DNA of 64,000 bases from Candidatus Bathyarchaeia archaeon (GTDB taxonomy: Archaea > Thermoproteota > Bathyarchaeia > Bathyarchaeales > Bathycorpusculaceae), in assembly GCA_050010755.1 (NCBI GenBank), contig JBEKKK010000001.1, positions 928,001-992,000 on the forward strand, in the 5' to 3' direction. The number at the start of each line of letters is the position of its first letter. Within the stretch, counting starts at the first letter, position 1. Made by a program: the position numbers and the translations under genes. The notes beneath the pieces are model-generated. The model searched no databases. It saw nothing but the letters and a program-made list of their open reading frames with translations, and was not told the DNA's origin. Of this stretch, positions 2,049-62,663 are shown in pieces.

Positions 2049-2057
2049 ATAGTGCGC

Positions 2058-2624
2058 TCATATCTTTTTTCCGATTGAGAACGTTTTTCCTATGGGTTTC
2101 CCAACTTTATGATATGTCATTTGTGCAGGATTCCACAGGATCGGTTTCACTTTTTCAATGTCTGGAAGGTTCTTTTCATTAAGCACAAGAGAATCAGCTT
2201 TGACATCCATGACTTCACCTATGAACTCCGTGTGTAGCCCAATTTTAACTATCTGAATAACCTTGCACTCTATTATCAGAGGAAATTCTTTCACATAGGG
2301 TGCATCAACAAGATCGCTTTTCACAGGAGTGAGTCCAGTTGCTGAGAATTTATCCACCGTTTTCCCCGAAGTGATGCCAAAATAATCAGCCTCCTTGGCA
2401 TGGGTTTCGGATGGAATCTTCACTGTGAACGATTTCCGTTCCATAATATTTCTATAGGTATACGTAGCTTTTCTCAGAGATACATAGATACACGGCGGCT
2501 GGGAACAACAAATTCCTCCCCAAGCAGCAGTCATAACATTTGGTTTTCCCTCTCGATCATAAGTTCCCACAACCCAGACGGGTGTCGTGGGAACGATAGT
2601 CTCTGCACCCAAAGATATTTTCAT
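2058..2624 (-). CDS. Flavin reductase family protein (flavoredoxin-like)
   Basis: [11 protein letters not shown]...[28 protein letters not shown]. Confidence 0.9.
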
Positions 2625-2704
2625 AAGAAACCTCCTAACGCGCGTTCTTCGAAATCGTCCATATTAAGATGTCTAGTGTATTTGATCTGCTTTCATTGTC
2701 TCTG

Positions 2705-3541
2705 TCAGTTTTTGGGTTTGATGGCTGAGACTTTCACGCTTGCAACAGTGGTGGCGATCTTTCTGATTTCTTGTTGCGGTATCTTCGAAGTTTTAACTAT
2801 TGCTTGTGCGGTGGGGTCGTTTGCCATGTTTTCGACTGGGAACTGGTTTTCTTCGGTTATCTTGACTTCCTTGAAACCAGCATCTTCTATCATCTGCAGA
2901 TATTTGCCTTTCATCTCTGCGCCTGAGATGCATCCGACGTATGCTTGAACGTTCCTTTTTATGATTTCAGGTAGTTTTTTTGACAGCACGATGTCCGAAA
3001 CCATAAGTCTTCCACCTGGTTTCAGTGTTCTGAAGGCTTCTTGGAATACACGTTTCTTGTCTGTTGACAGGTTTATGACGCAGTTCGAGATTAAGACGTC
3101 TACTGTGCTGTCGGCCACTGGCAGGTTTTCTATTTCCCCCAGCCTGAACTCCACGTTATCGTATTTGCCCTTCCTCGCGTTCTCCCTTGCCTTGTCAAGC
3201 ATCTCAGGCGTCATGTCCACGCCAATGATTTTGCCCGTCTTTCCGACCTTGTTTGCCGCCAGGAAACAGTCAAATCCTCCGCCAGAGCCCAAGTCCAGAA
3301 CGGTTTCTCCTTTCTTGAGAGAAGCCAACGCGACAGGGTTGCCGCATCCGAGACCAAGATTCGCGCCTTCTGGAACAGAACTCATTTCCTCTTCACTGTA
3401 GCCTACTCTCCTGCTGATGTCCTTGCTCACACTAGAAGCATTAGAGTCACATGGATTTGAGGTGCCGCAGCAGGATCTGTTGCTTTTGGCAGCCTTCGCG
3501 TATCCCTCGCGGACTACTTTTCTGACATTTTCTTCTTTCAT
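2705..3541 (-). CDS. arsM: Arsenite S-adenosylmethionine methyltransferase
   Basis: N-terminal SCC, GLGCGNP, VLDLGSGGGFD, ISNCVINL, GCISGA. Confidence 0.92.
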   Translation of the reverse strand: MKEENVRKVVREGYAKAAKSNRSCCGTSNPCDSNASSVSKDISRRVGYSEEEMSSVPEGANLGLGCGNPVALASLKKGETVLDLGSGGGFDCFLAANKVGKTGKIIGVDMTPEMLDKARENARKGKYDNVEFRLGEIENLPVADSTVDVLISNCVINLSTDKKRVFQEAFRTLKPGGRLMVSDIVLSKKLPEIIKRNVQAYVGCISGAEMKGKYLQMIEDAGFKEVKITEENQFPVENMANDPTAQAIVKTSKIPQQEIRKIATTVASVKVSAIKPKN

Positions 3542-3573
3542 GTTTTCATGTCCTGTTTGTTAGATCGTAAAGC

Positions 3574-6612: not shown

Positions 6613-6836
6613 GAAGGATTTTAGTGAACATTCGAGCCAAGCTAGTGAAGAAAGGCATGTTCGGTGCAGCAGGAATAGTGCGCGCGAACCAGGCGAAAAC
6701 ACCCTCAGGCTGCTCAGTTGTTTTTCCACTTTATAAGTAAGTGTGCGTAGTATAGGGCAGTAGCGTTTTGTTGTTGAACGACGATAAGCACGGCAACTTC
6801 ACACGTTACACTCAATAATAAGAAGGATGATGGAAA

Positions 6837-7124
6837 ATGTCGGAAAAATCAGGAATCGTTTTCATAGGAAGCAAAACATCAATGGACTATGTTCTCGCGG
6901 TTATCACCAGACTATCTGCTGGCGATGCAAAGGAAGTAACCTTGAAAGCACGAGGACGAGCAATCGCAACAGCTGTTGACGTAGCTGAAATAACCAGAAG
7001 ACGCTTTCTAAAAGACCTAAAAATAGGCAGAATTGCTATCGGGACAGAGGAGATGCCGGCAAGGGAAGGCGAAAACAGATCACGGATGGTTTCAACGCTG
7101 GAAATAACTCTTGTAAAAGAGTAG
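6837..7124 (+). CDS. albA: DNA/RNA-binding protein Alba
   Basis: VFIGSK..MDYVLAV, LKARGRAI..AVDVAEI, VSTLEI. Confidence 0.92.
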   Translation: MSEKSGIVFIGSKTSMDYVLAVITRLSAGDAKEVTLKARGRAIATAVDVAEITRRRFLKDLKIGRIAIGTEEMPAREGENRSRMVSTLEITLVKE

Positions 7125-7199
7125 GAAAACCTTGCGAAGCAAATGCGCTAACGCAATAAGAGTGAGGGACTATTTAGAAACGGGCACCGATGAAAAACA

Positions 7200-8462: not shown

Positions 8463-8836
8463 AAGCCAAGTGTTCAGAGCGCGCGCAACACTGCTGGTTG
8501 GATTTAGCTTTGCCTATGGAGTGTTCCTGGAAAACCGGTTGAACTAGAGGATGACAAATGGCGTCAAGAGGATACATAGATTTCAACTTAGATTACTGGT
8601 GCGCGTTCTGTGGACGCAGAGTTCCTAAAGGACAGGAAAAACACGACGTTCTAGGCCGACCGATAGACTGGAAATGAAACGCGCGCTAATATGAAAATAT
8701 CATTCTTTTCAGAAAACGCAAATGAAAGACAATCTTTGTAGGGGTGCAGGCTCTCTTTAGCGGCAACCCGCTTGGATTTCGAATTCATAAATTCTTTATC
8801 ACTTTGCGATTATATTTGTTGGATGGAAGTCTTGAA

Positions 8837-10545: not shown

Positions 10546-10735
10546 CGCACGCAGATTCTTCCGTTTGAAACTGATTTCAGACAAATTTCACGCTGGCGCG
10601 CGCTTTTTGAATTTTGAAGTTTCCGATGCTTCTTTTTACGCCTAAGGTGTGAATTCGGCTTGGGTCGAAAAACAGTGGGTTCGCGCAAGGCTTTAATTCA
10701 AACGGGTTCAAACAATAAAGTGGAGGGACGGGCTT

Positions 10736-12590: not shown

Positions 12591-12671
12591 GCACCCATCA
12601 CGCAAGCTTTGTATGATTAGCGCGCGCAACTTTGATATCGCATTGTTTATCCATCTAGCGTGCTTTTGTGG

Positions 12672-14028: not shown

Positions 14029-14452
14029 ACAAGCACTCCTAAAAGTAAGAGTCTAGGAAAGTCGGATATAAGCTATTTGTGTGCATAAACTCGAGTCTAA
14101 GCCTTTGAGCGTAGTCTAAAAAGTGTTTACGCTCGTTATGTGCAATACGTGTGGAAACCAATTTAGAGAATATTTCATGGGAAGCACGTTGCGATTTGTT
14201 TTGAGCGCGCACAACGGCGGTTTGGGAAAGATTAGAGTGAGTAAAGAAACGACAGACAGGCATAAAACCTATCAATGACACTTCTCTCTGGCACACGCTT
14301 TTTTCTTTGAGCCCAACCCTTTTCAAGCATCAGAAGGGCCAGAGACCCACATTCTTACTTGCATTAACAAGCGCACCAATTCAAGTCCTAGCTAGCTGCA
14401 CACAGAAAAAATATAAGATAAATCCTGCATATAGGACTGTGGAGGAGTAGCT

Positions 14453-17581: not shown

Positions 17582-17800
17582 ATGGAAGGAAGAAAGAAAG
17601 TATTGATAATTTTCGGAATGATTCTTTTTATAATAGGCGTGGTCGTTTCATTCTATCCGACGGTCGCTCCATATAAAAGTGTAGGCATAGTTCTGGCTTT
17701 GGCTGGAAGCGTGTGTGTGGTATTGGGGTTACTTTACTCGCGCGCGCTACAGAAGATACGACCATCGCGTACTAACCCACAGCAACCTAGTTCAACTTAG
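17582..17800 (+). CDS. Small two-TM membrane protein
   Basis: Two hydrophobic helices; site at 17738-17749 near the C-terminus. Confidence 0.65.
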   Translation: MEGRKKVLIIFGMILFIIGVVVSFYPTVAPYKSVGIVLALAGSVCVVLGLLYSRALQKIRPSRTNPQQPSST

Positions 17801-17955: not shown

Positions 17956-18219
17956 TTACCTTTGGGTTGATGAATCACTTCTCATACGCGCATGAGGCTC
18001 AGAGGTTTCTCGCTCTAACAAAGCCCAGAATATGATGTCTCTTTCTGAGTTGACAGTTCCGCTATGTCTTACTGTCCATCCATCTCCAGCGTACTTGTTA
18101 AGAGCCTCAGTCCAATCACCTGCTTCTTCTTCTCCGTATGCGCCACCCTTACCACGCGCGCGCTGTCCAGTAAGGCGAGAGAAATCATAGGACATGTAAA
18201 TTACTTTGTATTGCAGCAT
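17956..18219 (-). CDS. DUF4177-like small protein
   Basis: QYKVI...LNKYAGDGW...LLERE. Confidence 0.6.
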   Translation of the reverse strand: MLQYKVIYMSYDFSRLTGQRARGKGGAYGEEEAGDWTEALNKYAGDGWTVRHSGTVNSERDIIFWALLERETSEPHARMRSDSSTQR

Positions 18220-19628: not shown

Positions 19629-19858
19629 AGCGCGCGCTTCATGCTAACTACAAAAGTCCTTGAACAAACTTCTAAATTCAAGATAACCCATAAGCTGACT
19701 ATCCGTTCTAACCGTAGACATGAACGATTCTAGGAGAAAGCTTCTCTCCTTTACAGTTCGATTTCAAACTTCTGAAATGTTTGAGGCATTGTTGAAGAAA
19801 CCAGGCAATCAAACCCTTTTTACGTGACTGTATGGTGCATTAACGTCTAGCGTGCACG
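19629..19858. repeat. Non-coding ~220-bp unit, copy 2
   Basis: Direct repeat of 6391-6612; supplies the DinB gene stop codon. Confidence 0.9.
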
Positions 19859-20495: not shown

Positions 20496-20507
20496 TAGCG
20501 CGCGCTA
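20496..20507. repeat. Perfect palindromic site TAGCGCGCGCTA (representative of the iterated junction motif)
   Basis: Intergenic 12-bp palindrome; about 30 exact GCGCGCGC cores in the window by hand count. Confidence 0.9.
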
Positions 20508-20772: not shown

Positions 20773-21050
20773 TTTATCACCTCCAGTGCCCCAATGGTTG
20801 TCCCTTACGGTTTCGTAATTTGTTGTATTTAAGGTTGGGCACTCGCGCGCGCTCTGTCTCCGTCTGTGTGTGTTTTTTTGTTTGTGTCAAGGTGTAGAAA
20901 GTAAGAGAGATATCTAATAGTCTGTAGAAGCAGTAGTAGAAGAAGAAAAAGGGTAAAGTTTTATCCCATACACACTTTTTGACAAGATTCTTCTTCGTTA
21001 GAGGAATAATTATATGTGTGAAAAAGAAGTTTTTTCCGAGGAGTTAAGCT

Positions 21051-21733: not shown

Positions 21734-21747
21734 TAGCGCGCGCGCTA
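21734..21747. repeat. Palindromic site TAGCGCGCGCGCTA
   Basis: Intergenic 14-bp perfect palindrome. Confidence 0.9.
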
Positions 21748-23556: not shown

Positions 23557-23704
23557 AACTGTGGCAGCATTTCTCACAGTTCATAATGGATTCAATTATC
23601 TTGGATTTCTTGCTATTACTCTAATAATTCTGGTGCTCTGCATTTATTCAGTACTCAACTATCCAACAAAGTTAAAAACCAAAAATACCCTTAGCGCGCG
23701 CTGA
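23492..23704 (+). CDS. Small membrane protein (possibly a frameshifted continuation of the previous ORF)
   Basis: Two TM segments; ends SAR* inside site 23692-23704. Confidence 0.45.
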   Translation: MPPQRKQAVIRVLIFLAFLFAETVAAFLTVHNGFNYLGFLAITLIILVLCIYSVLNYPTKLKTKNTLSAR

Positions 23705-25832: not shown

Positions 25833-25941
25833 AGGCGACGTTTGGGTTTGGGATAAAACTTTACCCTTTTCTCTCTCATGCGTTTAAGATGCCGCGATAA
25901 AGCGCGCGCTATCGTTAGATGGGTGGAAGAACACATTAAAC

Positions 25942-27099
25942 TTATTGTGCTATATCAAAACGCATTACACTTAAAATAGCGCGCGCTTTTTTCGATGTCA
26001 ACACAACAACTATTGAAACGGCCAAGAACAACACTAGGATAAGTGCTGCACTGCTGAACTCCGGTATAGGGGATTCTGATATTACCGAGACCGTGCTGTC
26101 GCCAGCATTGGTCACGAATATCTCGCCCTTGCCAGAATCATAAGCTACGGCAAAGGGACCGTTTCCCACGGTCATGTTTGCAACCACAGTATTGTTGGTG
26201 TCCGATATAATCGAGACCGTGCCGTCAACAGTATTGGCCACGAAGATATCGCCCGTGCTGGAATCATAAGCTAATTCTTCTGGAGTGAGTCCCAAGGTTA
26301 TGTTTGCAACCACGGCATTGGTACTGTCCGATATGACCGAGACTGCGTTGACGCCAGCATTGGTCACGAATATCTCGCCCTTGCCAGAATCATAAGCTAC
26401 GCCGTAAGCTACGCCTCGGCCAGCGCCGTTTCCCAAGGTTATGTTTGCAACCACGGCATTGGTGCTGTCCGATATAACTGAGACCGTGTCGGGATTCTGA
26501 TTGGCCACAAATATCTCGCCTTTGCCGGAATCATAAGCTATGCCTTCGGGCTCGGTGTACCCTGTTCCCAAAATTATGGTTGCAACCACAGTATTATTAC
26601 TGTCCGATATGACCGAGACCGTGGGAGGGTTGTCGTCCTGATTTGTTACGAATATCTCGCCTTTGCCGGAATCATAAGCTATGCCATTGGGACTGGCTCC
26701 CACGGTTATGTTTGCAACCACAGCGTTAGTAGTATCCGAGATAGCCTGGACCGTCTTGACGCCGTAAAAATTGGATACGAATATCTCGCCTTTTCCAGAA
26801 TCATAAGCTATAGCGCGGGGAGTGGGTCCTGTGGTTATGTTTGCAACCACGGCATTAGTGCTGTCCGATATAACTGAGACCGTGCTTGGAGCATAATTGG
26901 CGCCCTCATTGGTTACGAATATTTCGCCTTTTCCAGAATCATAAGCTATGCCATAATCATAGGGAGGAGAGGCGGTGGGGTTACCCACTGGTATCGTGGC
27001 AATTACTCCAATTGCATAGACCGAATGGGCAATTGACAAGGCAAAAATCGCAATGAATATTAGACCCAAAAGCTTCCAAACTTTGACTTTCATATGCAT
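25942..27099 (-). CDS. YncE/YVTN beta-propeller surface protein with PEF-CTERM anchor
   Basis: Seven AYDSGKGEIFV.N...TVSVISD repeats, signal peptide, IPEF-TM-KK. Confidence 0.9.
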   Translation of the reverse strand: MHMKVKVWKLLGLIFIAIFALSIAHSVYAIGVIATIPVGNPTASPPYDYGIAYDSGKGEIFVTNEGANYAPSTVSVISDSTNAVVANITTGPTPRAIAYDSGKGEIFVSNFYGVKTVQAISDTTNAVVANITVGASPNGIAYDSGKGEIFVTNQDDNPPTVSVISDSNNTVVATIILGTGYTEPEGIAYDSGKGEIFVANQNPDTVSVISDSTNAVVANITLGNGAGRGVAYGVAYDSGKGEIFVTNAGVNAVSVISDSTNAVVANITLGLTPEELAYDSSTGDIFVANTVDGTVSIISDTNNTVVANMTVGNGPFAVAYDSGKGEIFVTNAGDSTVSVISESPIPEFSSAALILVLFLAVSIVVVLTSKKARAILSVMRFDIAQ

Positions 27100-27387
27100 T
27101 CCCCAACCTTTCCATCTAAAGCGCGAAAGTCGAATCTTCTTCTTGTCTTAAAAGGATTACTCATCAAAGTTTCTGGATGAGACATCATCGCTTGACACAT
27201 GGAAAGCATGGCGAGGTTCCCGTCCGAGGCGAACTTGACAAACGTTTCCGACGCTTTTTTGGGCTTGGTCATTTTCATTCTCACTTGAATCAGCCATACG
27301 TTGCTAATCAATTTCTATTTTGCCGTGCAGGCAAACAGCGCGCGCTTAGTATTTATGGGAGTCGTGGTCTTCCAGAGGTTGAGGATC

Positions 27388-28272: not shown

Positions 28273-28588
28273 TAACCCGCGCTGAGGATAACCTGTCACA
28301 AGAACCGCGACAGCATGTCTGCATATATTTTGAACCGCAACTCGAGGGCAAAGCATTCTTCGAGAAGTGTGCGCCCTCCATTGGAAACACAACCTAGAAG
28401 GTATTCGAGCGCGCCTTCGCACTTCACGCTGGGACTTATTGTTGCTGCGATCTTTGTGTTCACCCTAAGTCTTTCACAAGAAGTAAAGACCTCAAATCGT
28501 TAGCGCGCGCTTACCATTGCAGACTCGCTTTCTTAGAAAAACTTTTCTAATGCGCGCGATTCGCTTGCGATTAAACACTAAAGATAAG

Positions 28589-32352: not shown

Positions 32353-32464
32353 TTCTCTCGATTAATAGTAATAGGCACTAGTATAAAATCCGTTGGTAGC
32401 GCGCGCGCATGACTCGATAGGGCTTTTTAAGAACCATACAAGAGATAGTTTGCAATGTGAAAAA

Positions 32465-32821
32465 ATGGTTACAAACACAACACCCAAAATTGTCTACCTT
32501 GATCAGAAATGTTGGATTGATTTTGCGAGATTTTATTATGGTCAACCGTCTGGAGACGGAAAAGAACTTGTATCGAAAATCCTCGAGTACTCTGAGATAT
32601 CCCTGCTATTGTTTCCTCTTTCTATTTCCCATTTGGAAGAAACGCTACGCATTACAAGTAGCAGACGCAAGAGCCAACTCGCTTCTTTGATGGCAAAACT
32701 ATCAAAGGGCTACTCATTACAGCCACACATTGATGCAGTGGTTGAAGCTGAGATTGAGAACATCGTCTTGAGGAAAGCAGGGGTTCTTCGAGTGAACATA
32801 AAAAATTTGCGCGCGCTATGA
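32465..32821 (+). pseudogene. Probably truncated PIN-like domain protein
   Basis: IVYLDQKCWID...PLSISHLEET; ORF ends at site 32808-32818. Confidence 0.55.
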
Positions 32822-33939: not shown

Positions 33940-36423
33940 TCAGCGCGCGCTGTGCGGGTTTGGGTTTTGTTTGTAGAGTATTGTTTTTGCGATTTCTCGC
34001 CAGATGATGGCTATTATGGCGAAGCCTAGTATTATGGCGAATTGTTCTGCTGCGACGGGGGCTAGTTTGAGTTGGCTTGTGACTGGTGGAACCGTTTGGG
34101 CGATGATTAGAAACGCAAAGGCGAGAACTGCCCACAGATCCATTATCCTGTTCGATAATGGGCCTATTGCGTATAGTGGTTCTTTTTCGGATCGCATGAC
34201 AAAGGCCAGGATGATGTGGCCCATTATCCACGCTGAGAAAGCGTATGCTTGCACGGTTACGGCAGGTAGCCTCTGTGACCACGCGTAGAAGTATGCGAGC
34301 ATCACGGCTACGAATAGGCTCGTGGCGGATATGGCCATGTCCGTTACCATTTTCGAGTCAGGAAACTTTGCTTTTGGATCTCGGGGTTTTCTGTCGTAGA
34401 TTGTTTTTTCGGCCGGTTCGGTGACGAATCCTGCGGAAGCGGCGATGTCCATGAACAGTTCAAGCACGATAATCTGTATCGGAGCAAACGGCAAGGGCAT
34501 GGCCGGATAGAAATACTCGATGCCCAGCGCAAAAACGAACAGTGAGATAAGTGCAGCTTTGATTGCCAAATAGTACTTTAGACCCTTCCTAAGGTTGTCG
34601 AAGAAAGTGCGGCCTTCGAACACGGCGCGACCGATGGTCACAAAGTTGTCATCGGTCAAAACGACGTCTGCAGCTTCTTTGGCCGCATCTGTGCCCTTAG
34701 TGCCCATGGCGATTCCAACGTCGGCTCCCTTCAAAGCCAGGGTGTCGTTGACCCCGTCGCCCGTGACCGCGACCACTTCACCATTCGCATGCAGCGCCTT
34801 GACGAGCGCGTATTTGTCCTCAGGCGTCGTTCTTGCAAACACGGAGACCTCTTTGACGATGTCCTGAACTTCCTTGTCGGAAATGCCTCGAAGCTGCTCA
34901 CCCGTGAACACCTTTCCCGATGGGATTCCGACGCTTTTCGCGATGTAAGCCGCGGTCTGCGGGTGATCACCCGTGACCATGATGGTTCTGATTCCAGCAT
35001 TGCGAATAGACTGAATCGTTTCTTTGACGCCAGCGCGTGGAGGATCCTCGATTGAGACTAGGCCGATGAAATCCCAGTTTCCCTCTAATTCTGAAAGCGG
35101 CAATTCTGCTTCATCAGCAGAGACTTCTTTTTCTGCGACGCCGATTACCCTTCTTCCCTTTTCAGCTTCACTCTCGAGTTCATCTCTGAAAACATCACCC
35201 TGACCGTCCGCGCCCAAAATTTCCTCAGGTGCCCCCGCAGCTGAGAGCATGAAGACCCCGTTCTTCTCGCGCAGCACGGCTTTGGTCCGCTTGCCTATCT
35301 GGAAGCCCCGTTCGTGAACGACTCTGCCGAAGTCCGTTTGCACCTTTAGCGACTTGGCTTTTTCCAGAATTGCCTTATCAGTCGGGAACAGTGACCCCTC
35401 TGTCAATGCTGCCGTGGCTGCGCTCAGCGTCTTGGCCTCTTCTTGGCGCGGGTAGACTTGAACGACCTGCATCTTATTCTCAGTGATTGTGCCCGTCTTG
35501 TCTGTGAGGATGATGGTTGCATCGCCTAGGGTTTCTGCCGCCTTGAGCTTCTTGACTAGGAAGCCTTCTCGAGAGAGCCTGTATGATCCTAAGCCCAGTA
35601 TCATGGTGATTATGATTGGCAGTTCTTCGGGGATAGCAGCAAATGCCAGTGCCAACCCAGTCAATATCAGCGTTTTGTCCTCAAACAGATCTCGGTATCC
35701 GTAGCGCAAGATGCCCAAAGCAGGGATAACTATGCTGAAGAACATGGCAACGTACGCGAGCGTTATAGAAAGTTTTTTCATGGATAACTGCAAGGGCGTT
35801 TTCGGAGGCTTGATAGCCTGAGCCATGGCGGATATCTTTCCGAACCTGCTGTTCTTGCCCGTTGCATATGCTTCTCCTTGTCCTTCCCCTGAAAGCACGA
35901 GGGTTCCAGCGTAAACATCGTCTCCGACCTTCTTCTCCTGCGGAAGAGACTCGCCCGTTAAAACTGACTCGTCCACTTGAATGTCATATGACACATCGAG
36001 CTTACAGTCCGCTGCAACCCTTGTTCCCTCGACAAAGACCAGCAGGTCTCCGGGAACCACTTTTTCAGTTTCAACCTCGACTATTCTCCCATCCCGCACA
36101 ACCCTTGTCTTGGGAGCCGCAAGCACAGAAAGCGCCGATATAGACTTCTTAGCCCTGAATTCATTCCAGATCTCAACGAAAACCAAGACGAAGATAACGC
36201 TGAAAATCGTAACAGCGTCCTCCACGTTTGGCCACTCGAAAATAGTATAGAGAACGCCTACAACAAGCAAAAGCAGAATCATGGGCTCGACAACTTCTTC
36301 CTTGGCGATGCCCAAGAAACTCACCGTGTAAGGCTTGGCAATCTGATTCGGCCCGACTTCCCGAAGCCTCTCCTCCGCCTTAGCAGTCGAAAGGCCTTCA
36401 GACTTTACGCCAGAACCCTGCAT
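33940..36423 (-). CDS. Cation-transporting P-type (type II) ATPase
   Basis: TGES, IPEELP, DKTGT, TGDGVND; ends SAR* in a site. Confidence 0.95.
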   Translation of the reverse strand: MQGSGVKSEGLSTAKAEERLREVGPNQIAKPYTVSFLGIAKEEVVEPMILLLLVVGVLYTIFEWPNVEDAVTIFSVIFVLVFVEIWNEFRAKKSISALSVLAAPKTRVVRDGRIVEVETEKVVPGDLLVFVEGTRVAADCKLDVSYDIQVDESVLTGESLPQEKKVGDDVYAGTLVLSGEGQGEAYATGKNSRFGKISAMAQAIKPPKTPLQLSMKKLSITLAYVAMFFSIVIPALGILRYGYRDLFEDKTLILTGLALAFAAIPEELPIIITMILGLGSYRLSREGFLVKKLKAAETLGDATIILTDKTGTITENKMQVVQVYPRQEEAKTLSAATAALTEGSLFPTDKAILEKAKSLKVQTDFGRVVHERGFQIGKRTKAVLREKNGVFMLSAAGAPEEILGADGQGDVFRDELESEAEKGRRVIGVAEKEVSADEAELPLSELEGNWDFIGLVSIEDPPRAGVKETIQSIRNAGIRTIMVTGDHPQTAAYIAKSVGIPSGKVFTGEQLRGISDKEVQDIVKEVSVFARTTPEDKYALVKALHANGEVVAVTGDGVNDTLALKGADVGIAMGTKGTDAAKEAADVVLTDDNFVTIGRAVFEGRTFFDNLRKGLKYYLAIKAALISLFVFALGIEYFYPAMPLPFAPIQIIVLELFMDIAASAGFVTEPAEKTIYDRKPRDPKAKFPDSKMVTDMAISATSLFVAVMLAYFYAWSQRLPAVTVQAYAFSAWIMGHIILAFVMRSEKEPLYAIGPLSNRIMDLWAVLAFAFLIIAQTVPPVTSQLKLAPVAAEQFAIILGFAIIAIIWREIAKTILYKQNPNPHSAR

Positions 36424-37256: not shown

Positions 37257-37299
37257 GCGCGCGCTAATTTTGGGAATAGAAAAAATAGTCGTTGTTGGC

Positions 37300-38634: not shown

Positions 38635-39219
38635 TTAACTTCCCCTCAAGCACTAGGGGCCTCCGAAAAAGATAAACTGTTCCCCTTCCCGACACCTAGG
38701 CTATTATTAGCGCGCGCTCAACTGGAGAATATGGCTAGATTTGGAACAGAATAGGGTACAATTCTGAAAAACCCCTTAATAATTAAAAATCACTGAATCA
38801 ATTCGGAGTTGAGAACAAGTCTGCAACACCATTTCCTCAAGTGGACTCGCAACGGTCCAGAGAAAGTTGAAAGTTAATTTTTCCCTCCTTTCTCCCTTCA
38901 GCCTCTGGACCCTTGCGAGAACTGTAGAGGAAAAGGTTAGGCAGACAACCGTGAGTTGGCGACGATGGAAATGATGAGATGTCAACCTTGGCATTGGCGG
39001 AGAGGAGAAGAAAGCGAGCAAGAAAAGAAGGTGAATAAAGTGTTGGAAATACCTCATTATACCTACATATTTTCTGAAGAATGCAAGAAAGGTGAATATA
39101 AACTCAAAATAGAGAGGACGGTTATAAAGAGCGAGAATAGGAAAAAGCACATTCTATGGTAGTTCAAGTGGAAGCACGCGCGCTTGTCGCCGTTTGTGGT
39201 GCGTGCTTCGCGCGGCCAT

Positions 39220-39591: not shown

Positions 39592-40038
39592 AATCAGTCA
39601 ACCAATCATACGAGAACCCACCAGTCATATTTGCCTTTTGCCCCACCCCGACCCCGTCCTTGGATTGCTTTGGAAAGCGGAAACGAGAATCTTCAAAGAT
39701 ACTCTATTATGCAAGACATTAAGGAAAGTTCAATCTTGAGGATTTCAGCTAAAGGTAAGAAGCCTTTTCCGAAAGTGGTTTTTCGTGATGGCCTTCAAGA
39801 TAAGCAGATTAAGAATTTCCTTGAAACTCGAAAACTAATATTGACTTTTCCTAGAGACCCACGCATAACTGTTTCGCGCGCGCTAAGAATCGGTAATATG
39901 CACCAACCTTAAAAGACGCGAAAACAATGAAGACATAGGAATAGATTTGGCACAAATGGGAAGACATAGGAAAGCTAAACCTCCAAATAAGCGACTGAAG
40001 AAAATCTTGAAAAAGACAGGTCGCTAGCGCGCGCCATA

Positions 40039-40368: not shown

Positions 40369-40569
40369 ATAGCACACCTTCAGCGCGCGCCGAAGTCGTC
40401 GAGAGGCAGACAAAGCACCTTCTATGGCCTTTCTCTATCAGAACAGGTCGTTATGGAGAACTAAAGCAGTTATTTCAGAATCTGCAATATGAAAAAACTG
40501 ATAACATACTCCTGCCCAATTGCAAAACTGCGACCTCTACCCGCATCTTGAACGAGTTTTCAGTTTGGC

Positions 40570-40600
40570 TAGAGCGCGAGCGCGCGCGCACGCGCGCGCC
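40570..40600. repeat. Tandem cluster of GCGC sites / alternating purine-pyrimidine tract
   Basis: TAGAGCGCGAGCGCGCGCGCACGCGCGCGCC. Confidence 0.85.
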
Positions 40601-44859: not shown

Positions 44860-45033
44860 TATTTCACCTCCAGTTTCCTCATTCCTTCCAATTCTCTTCC
44901 CTCGCATATTTATGAATGTGTGACTGCAACCACACAGCAAAAACGCGCCAACATCCTGAAAACTGGAAAAGCCATGAGCGACAAGTTTGCAGTATCTAAA
45001 GCTTCAAGCATGCCCAGTACAAAGGTCCAACGG

Positions 45034-45275
45034 CTACATGTTCTCTCGGATCATCTTGGCTAAGCGGCGGATTCCCTCGTCTATCTGCTCTTTCGTGGGA
45101 TAGCTGAAGTTGAGGTGCATCGCGTTCTGTCCTTTGCCGTCGCAGTGGAAGGCTGATCCGATCACGTAGGCCACCTTGTTTTCTATGGCTTTGGGCAGCA
45201 GCTCGTTCGCGCTCATCTTCTTGGGCAGTTTCACCCATAGGAACAGGCCGCCCTCCGGATGCGTCCAAGTCACGC
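45034..45275 (-). pseudogene. 3' fragment duplicated from the aminotransferase at 47412..48617
   Basis: Last ~80 codons nearly identical; 5' break at the site GCGCGCGC (45277-45284). Confidence 0.9.
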
Positions 45276-45387
45276 CGCGCGCGCTGAAATCGAAGATTAG
45301 AATCGATTAACTCCATCATAAGGGCACGTGAGTCTAAAAAAAAGAGGGGGATATCACAGCTTCCCCTTTTTGATTCTGCCGTTGGAA

Positions 45388-47141: not shown

Positions 47142-47411
47142 TAATAGGTATAAGCATTGCCCCTAACGGGTCGCGCCTAGCGCGCCTAAACGTTTTCTTG
47201 TATGAACTGCGCTGGCCAAGAGCCTTCCAGTCCAGTGATATCTTTTTCTAAACCAAGATGGAGAAGTGGCAAACCTAGTCCACGCCCACTTTATCCGCTA
47301 AGGCTTTCGCAAGATCTGCGAGCCATGTTCGGCCATTGCCCCGGAGACGATCATCTCGGCTTCGCTCTCAAGCAGCACCAGCGAGAGGATGAGCGCGCGC
47401 AAGCCCAGCGG

Positions 47412-48617: not shown

Positions 48618-49022
48618 TACACCGTCCTCCTCCGCATATTAGAGCGCAGACCCCATTTTCACACTCAAACCGTCAACCTACATAAGGTTATTGCACCCAC
48701 CTGACGGATCACAAACATGAAAACGCCCGAATTCACAAAAAACCAGAACTGACCCTCAGCAACTATTTTCAAAACCGCTGTTCGGCCGCCTCAGATTCCA
48801 TCCAAATAACGGAGAAGAGATTGATGGACGAAATCTCCGAGCGCCTAACCGTCATAGACCTTACGTAATAAGGTTTTTCATCGTGGATTCTGTTACCTTG
48901 TCGTCTGTTTGTTCTCCTTGTTACATTTCGTCTGCTGAGAGGACTTTATGAAAAAGCGAATAGACCTTGCTCTAGTGTTCTTCGTTGTCACAGCGCGCGC
49001 TTTTTCGGTCTTTAAGCGCGTG

Positions 49023-55381: not shown

Positions 55382-55382
55382 G

Positions 55383-56034: not shown

Positions 56035-56481
56035 CTAGCGCGCTTGTGAATTTCGTTTTAGAAGCTCCACAAATCGTCTTTTGTGCTTTGGGCTGTCAAT
56101 AAATCTAAAGTTGGAAGAATGCATCTCATATTTCGAGCGCTGATGAAGATATTTCTTTCTGAGAAAAACGTAGACTCTGATTTTCCACGACCTTACCCGA
56201 ATCTCGGCGTTTCTGTGTATTGCCCAAGCATCGAATTGTAACTTATTAATTCTTTCTTCCCATCGCTCAGGATGTTTCTGTTTCCATTTTCTGTAATGCT
56301 CTCGTGCGTAGTCCTGTTGTTTTTCGAGGTTTGCCTGCCTCCATTTCTTTTGATAATCCCGCGCGTGCGCGCGCTCTTCTGCAAGGTGTTCTTTCCTCCG
56401 CTTTTTCCGTCGTTCTAGTATCTTTTCTCGATGGGTCAAATAGTATTTCTTAGCATATTCTCGTCTTTCTTTTCCTGTCAA
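56035..56481 (-). CDS. Hypothetical basic protein (mobile-element-like)
   Basis: R/K/Y-rich repeats; stop lies in site 56035-56045; internal site 56360-56374. Confidence 0.55.
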   Translation of the reverse strand: MTGKERREYAKKYYLTHREKILERRKKRRKEHLAEERAHARDYQKKWRQANLEKQQDYAREHYRKWKQKHPERWEERINKLQFDAWAIHRNAEIRVRSWKIRVYVFLRKKYLHQRSKYEMHSSNFRFIDSPKHKRRFVELLKRNSQAR

Positions 56482-58580: not shown

Positions 58581-58906
58581 TTTGTTTTTTCCTCCTTTCT
58601 CCTTTTCGGTTTTTGTTACGGGATTAAGCTTGCCGTTAGCAGCTCTATACCCGCTCAGCCCAACGGACTTTTAACGTGCCTTTGGGCAAGGACACAGTCG
58701 GGAGCATGCCCCCTTGCACGCAAGAGTCGACTCTGCCCGACTGGATGCGCAGTTCGTTGCGGTTTACTTTTAAGCTTTGTGGGACCTTTTATGTATGATT
58801 CTTCTAGCTCTTTTGAGAATGAGAAAGAAGCCACTTACGCATAAGAAATGTTTCACATACAACATTAGCGCGCGCATGACGAACTTTTTATGCGTACTCC
58901 TATTGT

Positions 58907-59604: not shown

Positions 59605-59634
59605 GACGCAGCTTTCTTCAGCGATAGGCGCGCG

Positions 59635-60333
59635 CTATTCTATTTTGTCCTTTTTAGCCAGGTTGTGCCTTGCGCATAGTAGTTGGATGTTTTCGGTCAC
59701 TAGTGACGATCCCCCTTTAGAATAGGGAATGATATGGTCAAAGTGCAGGTTGTCGTGGCTTCCACAGATGACGCAGGCCCCCTTATCTCGTTTCCATACT
59801 TCCATTTTTACAGATGCTGGGATGATGCGGTTGTGATCAATCTCCTGGGACGAGACTTGAGGAATTTCATCGGTCAGTTCAAGCTTGAATTTGAAAACAT
59901 TACGACTATTGCTCTTTTCCTGCCATGAATCCACAAGTTTAAAGATGCCATTATAGGTCCAGATGCCTGGTCTGATCTTTTCGTAGACCTTCACAAGCTC
60001 GGCCTTTTTCTTTTGCTGTTTATAGTCGTTCGCGGCCTCGTAGAACAATCCGTTCTGAGTTAGAGAGCCAGTTGGATTGTACATCGGTTGATCCACCGTT
60101 TTGGGATTTCGTCCCCCAGCCAATTTTGGAGCATCATGGCCTTCATAAATTAGTACTCTGCCGTTTTCCTCGATCCTATCGGCGTATGGAGCACCTGTCC
60201 TTATGCTCATCAAAATAACACTGAACCCACCACGCAATCGAAAATTCATTCCCCTTTGAAGATTGACGCCCTCTTCTCTGCACACGTCTAGATAGGAAAG
60301 CAGGTCTCCAACGTTGAGCATTGGATGCCTCAT
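59635..60333 (-). CDS. HNH endonuclease with N-terminal SRA/PUA-like domain
   Basis: CVICG...LHFDHIIPYSKGG...NIQLLCARHN; PYAD...LIYEG; bounded by sites 59625 and 60383. Confidence 0.85.
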   Translation of the reverse strand: MRHPMLNVGDLLSYLDVCREEGVNLQRGMNFRLRGGFSVILMSIRTGAPYADRIEENGRVLIYEGHDAPKLAGGRNPKTVDQPMYNPTGSLTQNGLFYEAANDYKQQKKKAELVKVYEKIRPGIWTYNGIFKLVDSWQEKSNSRNVFKFKLELTDEIPQVSSQEIDHNRIIPASVKMEVWKRDKGACVICGSHDNLHFDHIIPYSKGGSSLVTENIQLLCARHNLAKKDKIE

Positions 60334-60472
60334 AAGAAGGTTGCTGGCCAGAATATAAATTCTAGCTAGCACGGTAACCTTTTCGCGCGCGTCGGCGCGA
60401 ACCAACGAAGTTTATATTTGGTTAGTTCAATACTAAGCTTACTACGACTTCTCACATCGGTGCTTATCAAAA

Positions 60473-61495
60473 ATGCCTCCAAAGAAAATTGTTTATCTGT
60501 TTGGAGCTGGTGCAACGATAGCAGAGACGCAATATGCCGGGGTTCAAGAAAAACCCTCGCTGGAATATATCTCTGAAACAGTGATAAGGAAAGCCAAAGA
60601 AGAAGGTGAATTGGCTGAGGCACTTAGCGAAATCGAACCAGACGACATCACCGATATTGAACTGTACATAAGTCTACTGGAATCTGCCCGCACAAAAAAG
60701 TATCTCGAGCTTGCAGGCAAGCTACGCTCTCTGTTCTCCAAGAGCATACAGGATGCATTGAAGATGGAGGGTAACATTATCGAACCAATGCTTACAAATG
60801 CCTTACTTCAAATGCATGGGACAATAAGAGAAGAAGAGAGATTTGCGGGGGCGATTTCCCTTAATTATGATAATCTTCTCGATCGTGCCTTTAATGGAGT
60901 CTTTGGTGGAGTAAACTATGGAATCGATTGCAGATGTAAAAAAGCAGGATATAGTATTAGAAAACGGGGTCCAGCATTGCTCAAACTACATGGATCCTTT
61001 AACTGGAGTCGGGGCTTTCCGTCAGTTGAAATCGATGAAGAACAGGCACAATTAGGCGAAGAGGAATCGATGCTATGGATTCCTCCAGGTATCGAGAAAG
61101 ATAAGGATGCCTACCCATTCAATATTTTATGGGGAAAAGCCTTTGAGATGCTTGATTGTGATGTTCTTAGAATTGTTGGATGTAAACTTAAACAAAATGA
61201 TTGGGGGTTGTTGTCACTGATTTTTAATACTCAATTGGAAACCGATCAAACATATGAAATACAATTGATTGATTTTCACCGAGAGGGCGAGTTGATAAGG
61301 CAGCGAAACGGTTTCCTTAGAAATGTCAAGATTCTGGGGGAATTGGAGAACTGCCAGGACTTGGTTGATCCTCCACCTTCTAATCCTTTTGAAAGTTGGT
61401 TAAGACTCAAACTCGCCTCGCTTAGGGAAAAAGGTGTTCGTATTGATGAATTGGGGTTAGATCATATTAATGCATTGTTAGGAGCGACCAACTAA
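60473..61495 (+). CDS. SIR2-like domain protein
   Basis: VYLFGAGA, SLNYD, LKLHGS.NW. Confidence 0.85.
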   Translation: MPPKKIVYLFGAGATIAETQYAGVQEKPSLEYISETVIRKAKEEGELAEALSEIEPDDITDIELYISLLESARTKKYLELAGKLRSLFSKSIQDALKMEGNIIEPMLTNALLQMHGTIREEERFAGAISLNYDNLLDRAFNGVFGGVNYGIDCRCKKAGYSIRKRGPALLKLHGSFNWSRGFPSVEIDEEQAQLGEEESMLWIPPGIEKDKDAYPFNILWGKAFEMLDCDVLRIVGCKLKQNDWGLLSLIFNTQLETDQTYEIQLIDFHREGELIRQRNGFLRNVKILGELENCQDLVDPPPSNPFESWLRLKLASLREKGVRIDELGLDHINALLGATN

Positions 61496-62544
61496 TGAAG
61501 CGTAAAATTGAGGAATGGCCGGCCAAAGAACTTTATGCAAAGAGAAACTCGATTCAATACCCTGATTTCCAAAGAGAGCCCACTGTCTGGAACGAAGTAA
61601 AGAGGCAACTATTGATCGACTCGATGTTAATAGGTCTGGACATACCTAAAATCTACTTATACCAACCAGAAGAAGGCCAGGTCAATGTCCTTCGTCCAGG
61701 GAGAAGACAAATTGATAATTATGACTGCATTGATGGCCAACAGAGGATAGTATCCGTTATCGATTTTTTCAGTCAGAGTCTAAAACTCAAAGATGGTCGC
61801 TACTGGCGTAATCTAACTTTTGAAGAACAACAAACTCTTCTCAATTATAAGTTCACAATTGCGCTTGTTACTATAGCCACTGAAGAAGATTTGAGGCTTC
61901 TCTTTCTCAGACTTCAGCTGGGCTCTATTCTCAATGTGGGAGAAAAACTACATGCAATGAAAGGAGGTATGCACGACTTTGTATTTGACGTTGGCAAGAA
62001 TCATCCCTTCTTTGTTAAAGTGACTATACCCGAAAGAAGATTTGCCAGAGAGACGGTGTTTGCTCAGATTTGCATAAACTCCTTCTATCGTTCGCTTCAC
62101 GGCACCTTTTATAGCGCAAGATACGAAGAACTCAAAGCTTTTTTTGCGCAGTATTCGAATTTGGAGGAATACGGGAGTGAAGTGACACGAATTAGGCATA
62201 CTTTGGATCTGTTAGACCAATACTTTGGAGTCGAAGCAACTCAGTTCAGGAACAGAGCAACCATAGTTTCAGGGTACTTGTTCTTTGAACAATTGATTGT
62301 AAAGGATGAAACAGAAAAACTTCCAATATTCGTGAAATTCTATTTAGAATTCTTGCGGAAGCTGTCACAACAATCGTCTAGAGGACTTGACTACGATCCG
62401 CAATACAGAGGATTATTGGATTTCCAAACTAACATCCTCCAAGCAGCAGTTAGCAGGGCAGCGATAGAAGCAAGGAATAGAATATTGGAAGAATATTTTG
62501 ATTATTACTTGGAAACCAAGAAAATAAAGACAACTCCTCTATGA
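61495..62544 (+). CDS. DUF262 (ParB-like) domain protein
   Basis: PDFQRE..W, LIDS, IDGQQR, LF.RLQ.G..LN; start overlaps the Sir2 stop (TAATG). Confidence 0.88.
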   Translation: MKRKIEEWPAKELYAKRNSIQYPDFQREPTVWNEVKRQLLIDSMLIGLDIPKIYLYQPEEGQVNVLRPGRRQIDNYDCIDGQQRIVSVIDFFSQSLKLKDGRYWRNLTFEEQQTLLNYKFTIALVTIATEEDLRLLFLRLQLGSILNVGEKLHAMKGGMHDFVFDVGKNHPFFVKVTIPERRFARETVFAQICINSFYRSLHGTFYSARYEELKAFFAQYSNLEEYGSEVTRIRHTLDLLDQYFGVEATQFRNRATIVSGYLFFEQLIVKDETEKLPIFVKFYLEFLRKLSQQSSRGLDYDPQYRGLLDFQTNILQAAVSRAAIEARNRILEEYFDYYLETKKIKTTPL

Positions 62545-62663
62545 TGTTGTGAATTTCATTCCAATCATATTGCCAGTCTACGCGCTAAAGCTCCTCTTCA
62601 CCACCCTTCGTTTTTATATGCGGTTAGAATATATCATATTCATTACTGTCCGTAGATGACTGA

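What the first reader, a model, noticed from the sequence alone, without database searches (positions are those of the whole stretch)
2050..62587. Candidate undescribed gene-cassette system: an iterated TAGCGCGCGCTA palindrome marks gene and module junctions across the window
Seen: about 30 exact GCGCGCGC cores by hand count, e.g. 8479, 10596, 12620, 19630, 20498, 21736, 23694, 25902, 27338, 28503, 32399, 32809, 33943, 37257, 38710, 40027, 40383, 45277, 47393, 48993, 58868, 59628. Fewer than one is expected at roughly 44% GC. There are also dozens of near variants, usually flanked by TA/AA on the left and TA/TT on the right. Almost all are intergenic or within a few codons of a gene end. Exact cores are absent from the interiors of the long genes and from the whole pilus operon (51973-55811). 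The intervals carry one to a few unrelated accessory genes in either orientation, often with their own promoter. Established: integron cassettes end in long attC hairpins and are usually co-oriented, while cyanobacterial HIP1 palindromes occur freely inside genes; neither fits. Inference: the motif is a minimal symmetric recombination site that lets genes be captured, duplicated, inverted and shuffled. No intact recombinase is in the window.
Basis: partly seen in the sequence, partly recalled or inferred. Interest (0 to 1): 0.92.

Follow-up and report, generated by a model that had tools for sequence, protein, structure and literature searches.

The report
GC-palindrome scars at gene-module junctions
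An eight-base palindrome, GCGCGCGC, that litters the spaces between genes in one genus of peat-soil archaea marks seams where DNA segments were cut, moved or lost, most likely as a by-product of jumping genes that insert at GCGC rather than as a new gene-cassette machine.

Summary
GCGCGCGC occurs 33 times (29 loci) in the window against 0.6 expected, and at 231 loci in the genome. The loci are 77% intergenic and peak 0-40 nt after stop codons. Independent assemblies from four studies carry the same junctions. The enrichment is confined to one genus (29-115 copies of AGCGCGCGCT against 0-9 in 26 relatives).

The motif does sit at seams. Only 8 of 78 mappable intergenic loci keep both flanks collinear in a congener, against 246 of 569 control spacers. 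Homology almost never crosses it. Gene fragments and one 311-bp module are bracketed by it in different contexts.

It is not an attC-like site: there is no arm beyond the 8-mer and the two flanks are independent.

The new clue is an IS5-family transposon and its MITEs, expanded in the same genus. They are flanked by GCGC on both sides, with no other direct repeat in 61 copies. The solo motif is therefore exactly two GCGC target duplications joined. At one boundary G002 has an intact MITE, G003 and G004 a MITE-end remnant, and G000 the solo motif.

The joining step is inferred, not shown. Other Bathyarchaeia carry the IS and Ku but lack the motif.

The parts
8479..8486 (.). (GC)4 locus, 16 nt after the stop of the GT4 glycosyltransferase gene 7200-8462. 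It starts a ~200-bp non-coding module that ends in GCGCGC at 8679-8684.
10596..10603 (.). (GC)4 locus, 50 nt after the stop of gene 10198-10545
12620..12627 (.). (GC)4 locus between convergent genes. In G002 a 166-bp MITE end abuts the same right-hand flank, and the window keeps a decayed CTAGCGTGC about 40 nt away.
17740..17747 (.). (GC)4 locus inside a doubtful 72-aa ORF
18156..18163 (.). (GC)4 locus inside a doubtful 87-aa ORF
19630..19637 (.). (GC)4 locus, intergenic; a paralogous repeat (19629-19859) starts here
20498..20505 (.). (GC)4 locus in a divergent spacer; the only exact TAGCGCGCGCTA in the window
20845..20852 (.). (GC)4 locus in the same divergent spacer
21736..21745 (.). (GC)5 locus, intergenic
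23694..23701 (.). (GC)4 locus between convergent genes
25902..25909 (.). (GC)4 locus, 69 nt after the stop of the ferredoxin-domain gene 24903-25832
25979..25986 (.). (GC)4 locus, 37 nt inside the 3' end of the NHL-repeat gene (25942-27093, minus strand)
27338..27345 (.). (GC)4 locus, 37 nt inside the called 5' end of the PhzF-like gene (start uncertain)
28503..28510 (.). (GC)4 locus, 78 nt after the stop of the DUF4365 gene (28589-30424, minus strand)
32399..32408 (.). (GC)5 locus, 46 nt upstream of the DNA methylase gene (31432-32352, minus strand)
32809..32816 (.). (GC)4 locus, 5 nt from the 3' end of ORF 32465-32821
33943..33950 (.). (GC)4 locus at the stop of the P-type ATPase gene (33940-36423, minus strand)
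37257..37264 (.). (GC)4 locus, 35 nt after the stop of gene 37300-37608 (minus strand)
38710..38717 (.). (GC)4 locus, intergenic
39876..39883 (.). (GC)4 locus, intergenic
40027..40034 (.). (GC)4 locus, 4 nt after the stop of gene 40039-40368 (minus strand)
40383..40390 (.). (GC)4 locus, 14 nt upstream of the same gene; a paralogous repeat (40390-40509) starts here
40580..40599 (.). Compound locus (GC)5-AC-(GC)4, 122 nt after the stop of the beta-helix protein gene
45277..45284 (.). (GC)4 locus that truncates a duplicated gene fragment (see 45027-45276)
45027..45276 (-). 250-bp copy (94% identical) of the 3' end of the aminotransferase gene (47405-47654). The copy is cut off at the motif at 45277, and the parent ends at the motif at 47393.
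47393..47400 (.). (GC)4 locus, 11 nt after the stop of the aminotransferase gene (47412-48617, minus strand)
48993..49000 (.). (GC)4 locus, 22 nt after the stop of gene 49023-49484 (minus strand)
56367..56374 (.). (GC)4 locus in a doubtful 63-aa ORF
58868..58875 (.). (GC)4 locus in a divergent spacer
59628..59635 (.). (GC)4 locus between convergent genes; it abuts the stop of the SRA-HNH nuclease gene
14125..14337 (.). 213-bp stretch that a contig of run X4 (a 95-99% identical strain) replaces with the 9 letters AGCGTGCGC, a one-mismatch form of the motif

Best explanation
GCGCGCGC is not a purpose-built recombination site. It is a scar: two copies of the tetranucleotide GCGC joined head to tail.

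Shown: this genus carries an expanded family of IS5-type transposons (DDE_Tnp_1 + DUF772, about 1.1 kb) and their non-coding MITE derivatives (about 130-500 bp). Each element carries GCGC immediately outside both of its ends, and no other direct repeat flanks them. GCGC is therefore read as their 4-bp target-site duplication. The element itself starts and ends with GC, so occupied sites read GCGCGC.

Inferred: when such an element, or a stretch of DNA lying between two such elements, is cut out or lost, the flanks are filled in and re-joined and both GCGC copies are kept. That gives exactly (GC)4, with independent flanks.

Inferred, with one supporting series: genes lying between two elements travel as cargo. 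When the elements later go, the cargo is left bracketed by (GC)4.

Inferred from the distribution: scars survive only where they do no harm, which is just after stop codons, between convergent genes and in accessory or defence islands such as this window. They then decay by point mutation.

The enzyme and pathway that do the joining are not identified. Something specific to this genus beyond mere presence of the IS is required.
For: (1) Letters. 61 full IS copies from many Bathyarchaeia MAGs have GCGCGC at 112 of about 133 scored ends. No direct repeat of 3 nt or more lies outside these tips (0 of 61), and 2-nt repeats occur in only 11 of 61. The only flanking repeat is therefore GCGC. The solo motif is GCGC+GCGC.

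(2) The IS is real. G000 C2:77969-79081 encodes a 348-aa DDE_Tnp_1/DUF772 protein between 22-nt inverted ends. A second right end at 79864 encloses a cargo gene.

(3) Co-occurrence. IS/MITE ends matching GCGC-N7-TGTYCCTAAATT number 6, 22, 49, 49 and 95 in the five genomes of the genus, against 0-3 in 26 relatives. AGCGCGCGCT numbers 69, 29, 87, 98 and 115 against 0-9.

(4) Occupied ends have 6-nt GC runs (26 of 34 flanks in the TIR cluster). The 8-nt runs are solo: only 5 of 169 have a TIR-like flank.

(5) Flanks. The left and right flanks of the solo motif are independent. TA occurs on the left at 60/213, on the right at 61/213 and on both sides at 10. This is close to the outer flanks of the IS copies, where TA occurs at 16 and 14 of about 66.

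(6) A boundary series. The same 311-bp module abuts an intact MITE end in G002, a 10-nt MITE-end remnant (GCATGCGCGC) in G003 and G004, ACGCGCGC in G001 and the solo (GC)4 in G000. The join falls at the same nucleotide in all of them.

(7) Junction behaviour. See, and the strain-level joints.

(8) Neutral decay. Transition variants number 390 against 158 expected. Only 1 of 4 G000 loci and 1 of 5 G002 loci inside aligned blocks is shared, and it is the same locus.

(9) Ku is found in 3 of 5 genomes of the genus, against 1 of 26 relatives.
Against: (a) Five other Bathyarchaeia genomes have 7-23 such IS ends, and all five have Ku. Yet they carry AGCGCGCGCT only 0-7 times above the control (3, 0, 1, 16 against a control of 14, and 7). 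IS plus Ku is therefore not sufficient.

(b) G000 has the fewest element ends (6) but 69 copies of the motif. Ku was not found in G000 (93% complete) or in G001 (77% complete).

(c) The abundant MITEs are flanked by TA at about 20 of 33 ends (my hand count), against 28% for solo motifs. Most solo sites therefore cannot be simple footprints of those MITEs.

(d) In the eukaryotic PIF/Harbinger superfamily, mPing excision is precise in 109 of 110 events, removing one copy of the target duplication (PMC2836001, passages read). That this superfamily is related to IS5 is recalled, not tested. By analogy, excision here would restore GCGC and not make (GC)4.

(e) In three aligned contexts where one species has the motif, the other has an unrelated 6-8 nt patch and not GCGC.

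(f) Several 'motif versus segment' alleles show neither GCGC nor element ends at the segment borders. Examples are the 992-bp G002 insert (left border) and the 213-bp stretch replaced in X4.

(g) No clean occupied/empty pair with both flanks collinear was found among 12, 12 and 20 elements tried.

(h) No excision event was observed.
Confidence: 0.5

Rival explanations
1. A genus-specific nuclease, restriction-like, cuts at GCGC with a 4-nt 5' stagger. Filled-in ends are joined by end joining, so every re-sealed break and every captured or deleted fragment carries GCGC+GCGC. Transposons are bystanders that share the target.
For: This gives the same letters and the same independent half-sites as the transposon model. 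It explains gene fragments bracketed by two motifs (155 bp and 316 bp) and the 'motif versus segment' alleles without element ends. It explains genus specificity where IS plus Ku does not suffice. The window is a defence island with several nucleases.
Against: GCGC (O/E 1.00) and AGCGCT (O/E 0.95) show no avoidance, although GATC (0.65) and CCGG (0.71) do. No candidate enzyme was identified. Repeated cutting should lengthen runs beyond (GC)4, yet none exceeds 11 nt in G000. Parental borders of the fragments do not show GCGC today.
Confidence: 0.15
2. One reading: A(GC)4T is a minimal symmetric site for a dedicated site-specific recombinase that captures, inverts and shuffles gene cassettes.
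For: The motif sits at junctions and synteny breaks. At G000 C1:323475 the congeners G002 and G004 have 2.4-kb and 4.6-kb inserts. Their shared left and right spacers end at motif-like sequences, and their contents differ from exactly there. One module is found in several contexts with the motif at the join.
Against: An 8-10 bp site with no arms is too short for known tyrosine or serine recombinase synapses (recalled; the absence of arms is). Sites are not conserved and they decay. Filled alleles often lack the motif at both ends. Oriented sites show no pairing: LR, RL, LL and RR number 23, 23, 26 and 27. No recombinase family was hit among the 40 window proteins scanned, 15 of which matched no family at all. 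The letters are fully explained by the GCGC duplication of a resident transposon.
Confidence: 0.1
3. The motif is a functional intergenic signal, such as a binding site for a genus-specific dimeric protein, a transcription roadblock or terminator aid, or a domain boundary. Its place at seams is secondary.
For: It is 77% intergenic, peaks 0-40 nt after stops, is enriched between convergent genes (48 of 178 against 16% of spacer bases) and is a palindrome.
Against: There is no fixed distance to starts, no stem, and no T-tract consensus after it. Orthologous sites are rarely conserved. 90% of mappable intergenic loci lie at synteny discontinuities. It brackets pseudogene fragments. It is concentrated in accessory islands and sparse elsewhere.
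Confidence: 0.12
4. The motif is a HIP1-like mutational drive: a methyltransferase paired with very-short-patch repair converts near-cognate sequences into the palindrome.
For: It is a genus-specific over-represented 8-bp palindrome with many one-mismatch neighbours.
Against: Such a drive should act inside genes as well, but 77% of loci are intergenic. It does not explain the junction position. No C5-methylase or Vsr search was run.
Confidence: 0.04
5. The motif is an assembly or library chimera joined by a GC linker.
For: The motif sits where unrelated DNA meets.
Against: Contigs of four runs from four studies bridge 11 of 12 loci in 12001-32000 without a difference. The intergenic bias is not expected of random chimeras.
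Confidence: 0.01

Closest known systems
IS5-family insertion sequences and their MITEs (short palindromic target duplicated on insertion)
   Same: The transposase has DDE_Tnp_1 and DUF772 domains. The elements have terminal inverted repeats, MITE derivatives and a 4-bp palindromic flanking repeat.
   Different: The target here reads GCGC. Hundreds of element-free doubled targets have accumulated, which is not a described feature of IS5 elements as far as I recall. The 4-bp YTAR target of IS5 itself is recalled, not tested.
Excision footprints of eukaryotic cut-and-paste transposons (Tc1/mariner, P, hAT), repaired by end joining
   Same: A short palindromic scar made of duplicated target or terminal letters is left at an empty donor site. 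It is neutral and decays.
   Different: Footprints are not an established feature of prokaryotic IS biology (recalled). The nearest eukaryotic relatives of IS5, PIF/Harbinger, excise precisely (PMC2836001, passages read). Excision was not observed here.
Integron gene cassettes (attC plus IntI)
   Same: Unrelated accessory genes are separated by a repeated site that lies just after each gene.
   Different: There is no attC-like arm or hairpin, gene orientations are mixed, no integrase family was hit in the window, and the sites decay.
HIP1 highly iterated palindrome of cyanobacteria
   Same: An 8-bp GC-rich palindrome is over-represented about tenfold in a clade.
   Different: HIP1 is common inside genes and widespread across a phylum (recalled). 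This motif is 77% intergenic and confined to one genus.
REP/BIME elements and the IS elements that target them; yeast mitochondrial GC clusters; Neisseria dRS3 and minimal mobile elements
   Same: Short GC-rich intergenic palindromes are associated with insertion, deletion end-points and swapping of genes between conserved flanks (all recalled).
   Different: Those repeats are 20-50 nt and can fold. This one is 8 nt with no arms. No RAYT search was run.

Membership tests
Integron cassette array | attC site: an imperfect inverted repeat of about 50-150 bp with paired R/L boxes | tested here: not met
   Symmetric positions beyond the 8-mer pair at 0.24-0.32, against 0.25-0.37 in shuffled partners. 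A perfect extension of 3 nt or more occurs in 3 of 231 loci.
Integron cassette array | IntI tyrosine recombinase and attI next to a co-oriented array | tested here: not met
   No recombinase family was hit among the 40 window proteins scanned against Pfam. Genes on both strands are interleaved. The whole genome was not searched for IntI.
HIP1-type iterated palindrome | Strong genome-wide over-representation of an 8-bp palindrome | tested here: met
   253 observed against about 21 expected
HIP1-type iterated palindrome | Occurs freely within coding sequence | tested here: not met
   178 of 228 placed loci are intergenic
REP/REPIN | A 20-40 nt imperfect palindrome able to form a stem-loop, with a RAYT transposase | tested here: not met
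   There is no arm beyond the core. RAYT was not searched for.
IS5-family IS/MITE system | DDE transposase of the IS4/IS5 type between terminal inverted repeats | tested here: met
   DDE_Tnp_1 E = 4e-13 and DUF772 E = 2e-9. Inverted ends match at 17-21 of 22-24 nt. 61 two-ended copies were found in other MAGs.
IS5-family IS/MITE system | Short direct target-site duplication flanking each copy | tested here: inconclusive
   GCGC lies outside both ends in nearly all copies, and no other direct repeat exists. Because GCGC is a palindrome, it cannot be told from the outermost letters of the inverted repeat. One outgroup copy reads CCGTGC/GCACGC, which fits the inverted-repeat reading.
Transposon excision footprint | The same site is seen occupied in one genome and carries the doubled target in another, with both flanks shared | tested here: inconclusive
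   One flank was shared in three cases: G002 MITE against G000 C1:1311702, G004 L079 against G002, and the 311-bp module series. No case had both flanks shared among the 44 element rows tested (the sets overlap).
DNA uptake sequence | Dense (about 1 per kb), enriched in core genes, conserved in position | tested here: not met
   About 1 per 9.5 kb, concentrated in variable islands and poorly conserved
Intrinsic terminator | A GC-rich stem followed by a T-run | tested here: not met
   No stem is possible within 8-12 nt. T frequency after the motif is 0.25-0.39, with no run consensus.

The most novel reading that the evidence does not exclude
This genus has a break-and-join pathway that acts at GCGC: a 4-nt staggered cut, then fill-in, then end joining. 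The cut may be made by a domesticated or hyperactive IS5-type transposase acting on MITE pairs, or by a separate nuclease. The pathway routinely deletes, captures and shuffles genes and even gene fragments, and writes (GC)4 at every seam. In effect this is an integron-like cassette economy without attC or integrase, and it builds the accessory and defence islands of these archaea.
Probability: 0.2. Interest if true: 0.85.

Novelty: new variant of a known kind. Interest (0 to 1): 0.55.

Why it matters
If the scar reading holds, the motif is a readable record of where DNA was broken and re-joined in an uncultured archaeal lineage. With hundreds of dated seams per genome, it could be used to measure transposon-driven gene flux, composite-element cargo transfer and end joining in archaea, where all three are poorly known.

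The finding also warns that a striking iterated palindrome at gene ends need not be a regulatory or recombination signal. The unexplained part is why only this genus accumulates the motif although relatives have the same IS and Ku. That is a concrete, testable question.

Tried and rejected
- No RNA holder was listed for the window, so transcript ends could not be examined.
- Rfam found only a tRNA-Arg in the window, and nothing for the 460-bp repeat. That repeat does not fold better than shuffles (z = -0.23).
- I looked for paired left/right motif orientation, with TA on one side. LR, RL, LL and RR numbered 23, 23, 26 and 27, so there are no bounded units.
- I looked for clean empty sites of elements in the other genome, using 12 pairs, 5+7 elements and 20 G004 MITEs. 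None had both flanks collinear within a short gap.
- A 2.6-kb 'element' with perfect 22-nt inverted ends at C5:5063-7658 has no ORF of 100 aa or more. I dropped it as a probable rRNA processing stem. This is my reading and was not tested.
- Upstream-of-start distances are flat, so I rejected a promoter or operator reading.
- 'TA as a 2-bp target duplication with GCGCGC as part of the element' fits the MITEs but not the 61 IS copies, where TA is only 16 and 14 of about 66.
- 'The motif is the preferred insertion target' was rejected because occupied ends show 6-nt and not 8-nt runs, and only 2 of 61 IS copies have GC outside both ends (my reading).
- Literature: four full-text searches listed no paper containing GCGCGCGC together with archaea, Bathyarchaeia, IS or MITE terms. 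Every listed row had 0 occurrences of the string. I saw search listings only, except PMC2836001, where I read passages. Supplements were not consulted.

Full report
**1. The observation**

GCGCGCGC occurs 33 times in the 64-kb window. The 100 dinucleotide-preserving shuffles gave a mean of 0.6 and never more than 4. Merged, these are 29 loci.

The 12-mer TAGCGCGCGCTA is exact once and has one mismatch 13 times, against 0.05 expected.

The window is G000:C1:928001-992000, in a 2.19-Mb, 8-contig genome. Genome-wide there are 253 hits, giving 231 loci. Zero-order and third-order Markov models expect about 21-23. CGCGCGCG occurs only 109 times.

Alternating GC runs peak sharply at exactly 8 nt: 147, against 80 of length 7, 66 of length 9, 19 of length 10 and none above 11. 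A(GC)4T occurs 69 times against 1.4 expected, while A(GC)3T occurs 45 times against 26. The object is therefore a defined (GC)4 and not a microsatellite.

Nothing is conserved beyond a weak T-A before the core and T-A after it. The two flanks do not pair with each other more than shuffled partners do.

**2. Where it lies**

No gene caller was available, so I built a crude one from hexamer log-odds. It called 2223 genes covering 83% of the genome. Its starts and its short ORFs are unreliable.

On these loci are intergenic, 50 genic and 3 at contig ends (p = 5e-93). Convergent spacers are over-represented: 48 of 178 loci against 16% of spacer bases. Divergent spacers are under-represented: 39 loci against 29% of bases (chi-square p = 2e-4).

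Measured from stop codons, the motif peaks at 0-40 nt downstream. Measured from starts, the distribution is flat. No T-run follows the motif.

The window has 4.5 loci per 10 kb against 1.2 for the contig. There is a second hot spot at C1:1.34-1.38 Mb.

The window's genes are a mix of accessory and defence functions. They include P-type ATPases, a TrmB regulator, a GT4 transferase, HSP20, an OYE reductase, PhzF, an MvaI/BcnI-like nuclease with a methylase, DUF4365, SRA-HNH, GmrSD-N, a SIR2-like protein, a pilus ATPase/platform block, Alba, DinB and glyoxalase.

**3. Not an artefact**

Eight public runs from several studies hold most of window 17001-27000. Contigs of four runs from four studies were laid on 12001-32000. 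They cross 11 of the 12 motif loci there with zero differences, mostly in two to four runs each.

**4. It is confined to one genus**

AGCGCGCGCT occurs 69 times in G000 and 29, 87, 98 and 115 times in the four other genomes of the genus. It occurs 0-9 times in 26 genomes of other genera of the family and order. Reversed-pattern controls gave 0-6.

**5. It marks seams**

The first window gene is 88-90% identical and syntenic in G002-G004. After about position 2003 the window matches congeners only as gene-sized pieces scattered over many contigs. The pilus block is kept as a block, but in other contexts.

I fetched 887 kb of G002. Of the intergenic motif loci with any mapped flank, 8 of 78 have both flanks collinear. 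Of control spacers without the motif, 246 of 569 do (odds ratio 0.15, p = 2e-9).

Within G000, paralogue HSPs start at -1 to +50 and end at -50 to 0 relative to the motif. Only 18 of 2620 HSPs of 80 nt or more cross it, and these involve just 3 loci. The same holds against G002.

Three kinds of example show truncation at the motif:
- A 155-bp piece and a 316-bp piece of internal gene sequence are each bracketed by two motifs.
- In the window, a 250-bp copy of the 3' end of the aminotransferase gene is cut off at 45277.
- A contig of run X4, a 95-99% identical strain, replaces 14125-14337 with AGCGTGCGC. Several of its alternative joints carry the motif at the join.

**6. It is not maintained**

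Inside aligned blocks only 1 of 4 G000 loci and 1 of 5 G002 loci is shared, and it is the same, probably genic, locus. Elsewhere the partner shows point variants (GCCCGCGC; GCGCGGAC in G004) or an unrelated 6-8 nt patch.

One-mismatch variants are in excess, above all transitions (390 against 158 expected). They are 58% intergenic. This looks like sites that are born exact and then decay.

**7. The clue to the letters**

A search for inverted repeats next to GC runs found an IS at G000 C2:77969-79081. It encodes a 348-aa protein with DDE_Tnp_1 and DUF772 domains. A further right end at 79864 encloses a cargo gene. The search also found MITEs of about 160-480 bp in G000 and G002 whose ends read GCGCGC-(A/T)(T/A)G..TGTYCCTAAATT.

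A second repeat family, 460 bp long with 11 hits in G000, has ends GCGCGC-RGG-YGAATTAAATAATT. A full IS with those ends exists in G005.

Ends matching GCGC-N7-TGTYCCTAAATT with at most one mismatch number 6, 22, 49, 49 and 95 in the five genomes of the genus. They number 0-3 in the 26 relatives.

The transposase is 85-90% identical in every genome of the genus. Only distant matches (28-38% identity) occur in 4 of 26 relatives.

A scan of one genome per species found 139 relatives.

In 61 copies with both ends found, the tips are GCGCGC at 112 of about 133 ends. The letters outside the tips are diverse. No direct repeat of 3 nt or more exists there, and 2-nt repeats occur in only 11 of 61.

A DDE transposon of this type is expected to duplicate its target (recalled). 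The only candidate duplication is GCGC, with the element itself beginning and ending in GC. Occupied sites therefore show 6-nt runs (26 of 34 flanks in the TIR cluster). The 8-nt runs are element-free: only 5 of 169 have a TIR-like flank. (GC)4 is exactly GCGC+GCGC.

There is a caveat. GCGC is a palindrome, so a target duplication and the outermost part of the inverted repeat cannot be told apart by sequence. One outgroup copy (CCGTGC...GCACGC) favours the inverted-repeat reading.

**8. A boundary series**

G000 C1:1311702 separates two modules that lie at different places in every congener. Both homologies stop at the motif.

The right-hand, 311-bp module carries a small zinc-ribbon ORF (my reading of the sequence). 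It begins at the same nucleotide in all five genomes. To its left stand:
- an intact MITE end in G002 (...GGAACAGCCATGCGCGC-TA)
- GCATGCGCGC-TA in G003 and G004, which matches 9 of the last 10 letters of the G002 MITE end
- ACGCGCGC-TA in G001
- TA-GCGCGCGC-TG in G000

To its right stand (GC)5, GCGCGAGCGC or CCGCGCGT. This is the pattern expected if cargo moves between element ends and the elements are later lost.

**9. What does not fit**

- Five other Bathyarchaeia genomes have 7-23 such ends and all have Ku, yet show no enrichment of the motif.
- G000 has few elements but many motifs, and Ku was not found in G000 or G001.
- MITE flanks are TA-rich: about 20 of 33 by my count. Solo flanks are less so (28%), though they resemble the flanks of the autonomous IS copies.
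- mPing, of the PIF/Harbinger superfamily, excises precisely in 109 of 110 events (PMC2836001, passages read). The superfamily's relation to IS5 is recalled.
- Several segment alleles lack GCGC or element ends at their borders.
- No occupied/empty pair with both flanks shared was found.

The joining step is therefore inferred. Some factor specific to the genus is missing from the account.

**10. Verdict**

The claim of a new recombinase-less cassette system is not supported.

The best reading, at about 0.5, is a scar of GCGC-directed staggered breakage and re-joining, tied to an expanded IS5/MITE family. A separate GCGC nuclease (0.15), a functional signal (0.12) and a dedicated recombination site (0.10) remain open.

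Noticed in passing
window 28589-32352 and 59635-63917: There are two defence clusters. The first holds a DUF4365 protein, tRNA-Arg(TCT) at 30509-30583, an MvaI/BcnI-like nuclease and an N4/N6 methylase. The second holds an SRA-HNH nuclease, a SIR2-like protein, a GmrSD-N protein and a methylase-like protein.
   Followed up: partly
window 12071-12570 and 16438-16939: A 500-bp stretch is present twice in the window in opposite orientation, and is multi-copy in the congeners.
   Followed up: no
window 6837-7124: An Alba-family gene lies inside a ~450-bp stretch (6693-7145) that matches many places in each congener at 72-85% identity.
   Followed up: no
window 17814-17872: A ~60-bp stretch matches dozens of places in G001-G004 at 81-97% identity. 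I did not characterise it.
   Followed up: no
window 51863-55811: The pilus ATPase/platform block is kept as a unit in all four congeners (75-84% identity), but with different neighbours in each. It contains no motif.
   Followed up: partly
G000 C1:1071523-1071990 and 10 further places: A 460-bp non-coding repeat has ~25-nt inverted ends GCGCGC-RGG-YGAATTAAATAATT. It has no Rfam match and no fold signal. A full-length IS with the same ends is in G005 (L099 627-1884).
   Followed up: partly
G000 C2:77969-79864: The IS is followed by a 238-aa gene with no Pfam match (membrane-protein-like by my reading of its sequence), and then by a second right end. This is a possible cargo-carrying composite.
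   Followed up: partly
G000 C5:5063-7658: Perfect 22-nt inverted repeats flanked by GCGC enclose 2.6 kb without long ORFs. This is probably an rRNA gene with its processing stem, but I did not check.
   Followed up: no
G002, G003, G004, G010, G031-G035: Ku (PF02735) is present in these genomes. It was not found in G000, G001 or 25 other relatives, so end-joining genes are patchy in this group.
   Followed up: partly
G002 C1:161353-161953: A tandem array with a 120-bp period has a GCGCGC in each unit. It appeared as two clusters in the flank analysis.
   Followed up: no
genome-wide: GATC (O/E 0.65) and CCGG (O/E 0.71) are the most avoided 4-bp palindromes, which hints at restriction pressure on those sites.
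   Followed up: no
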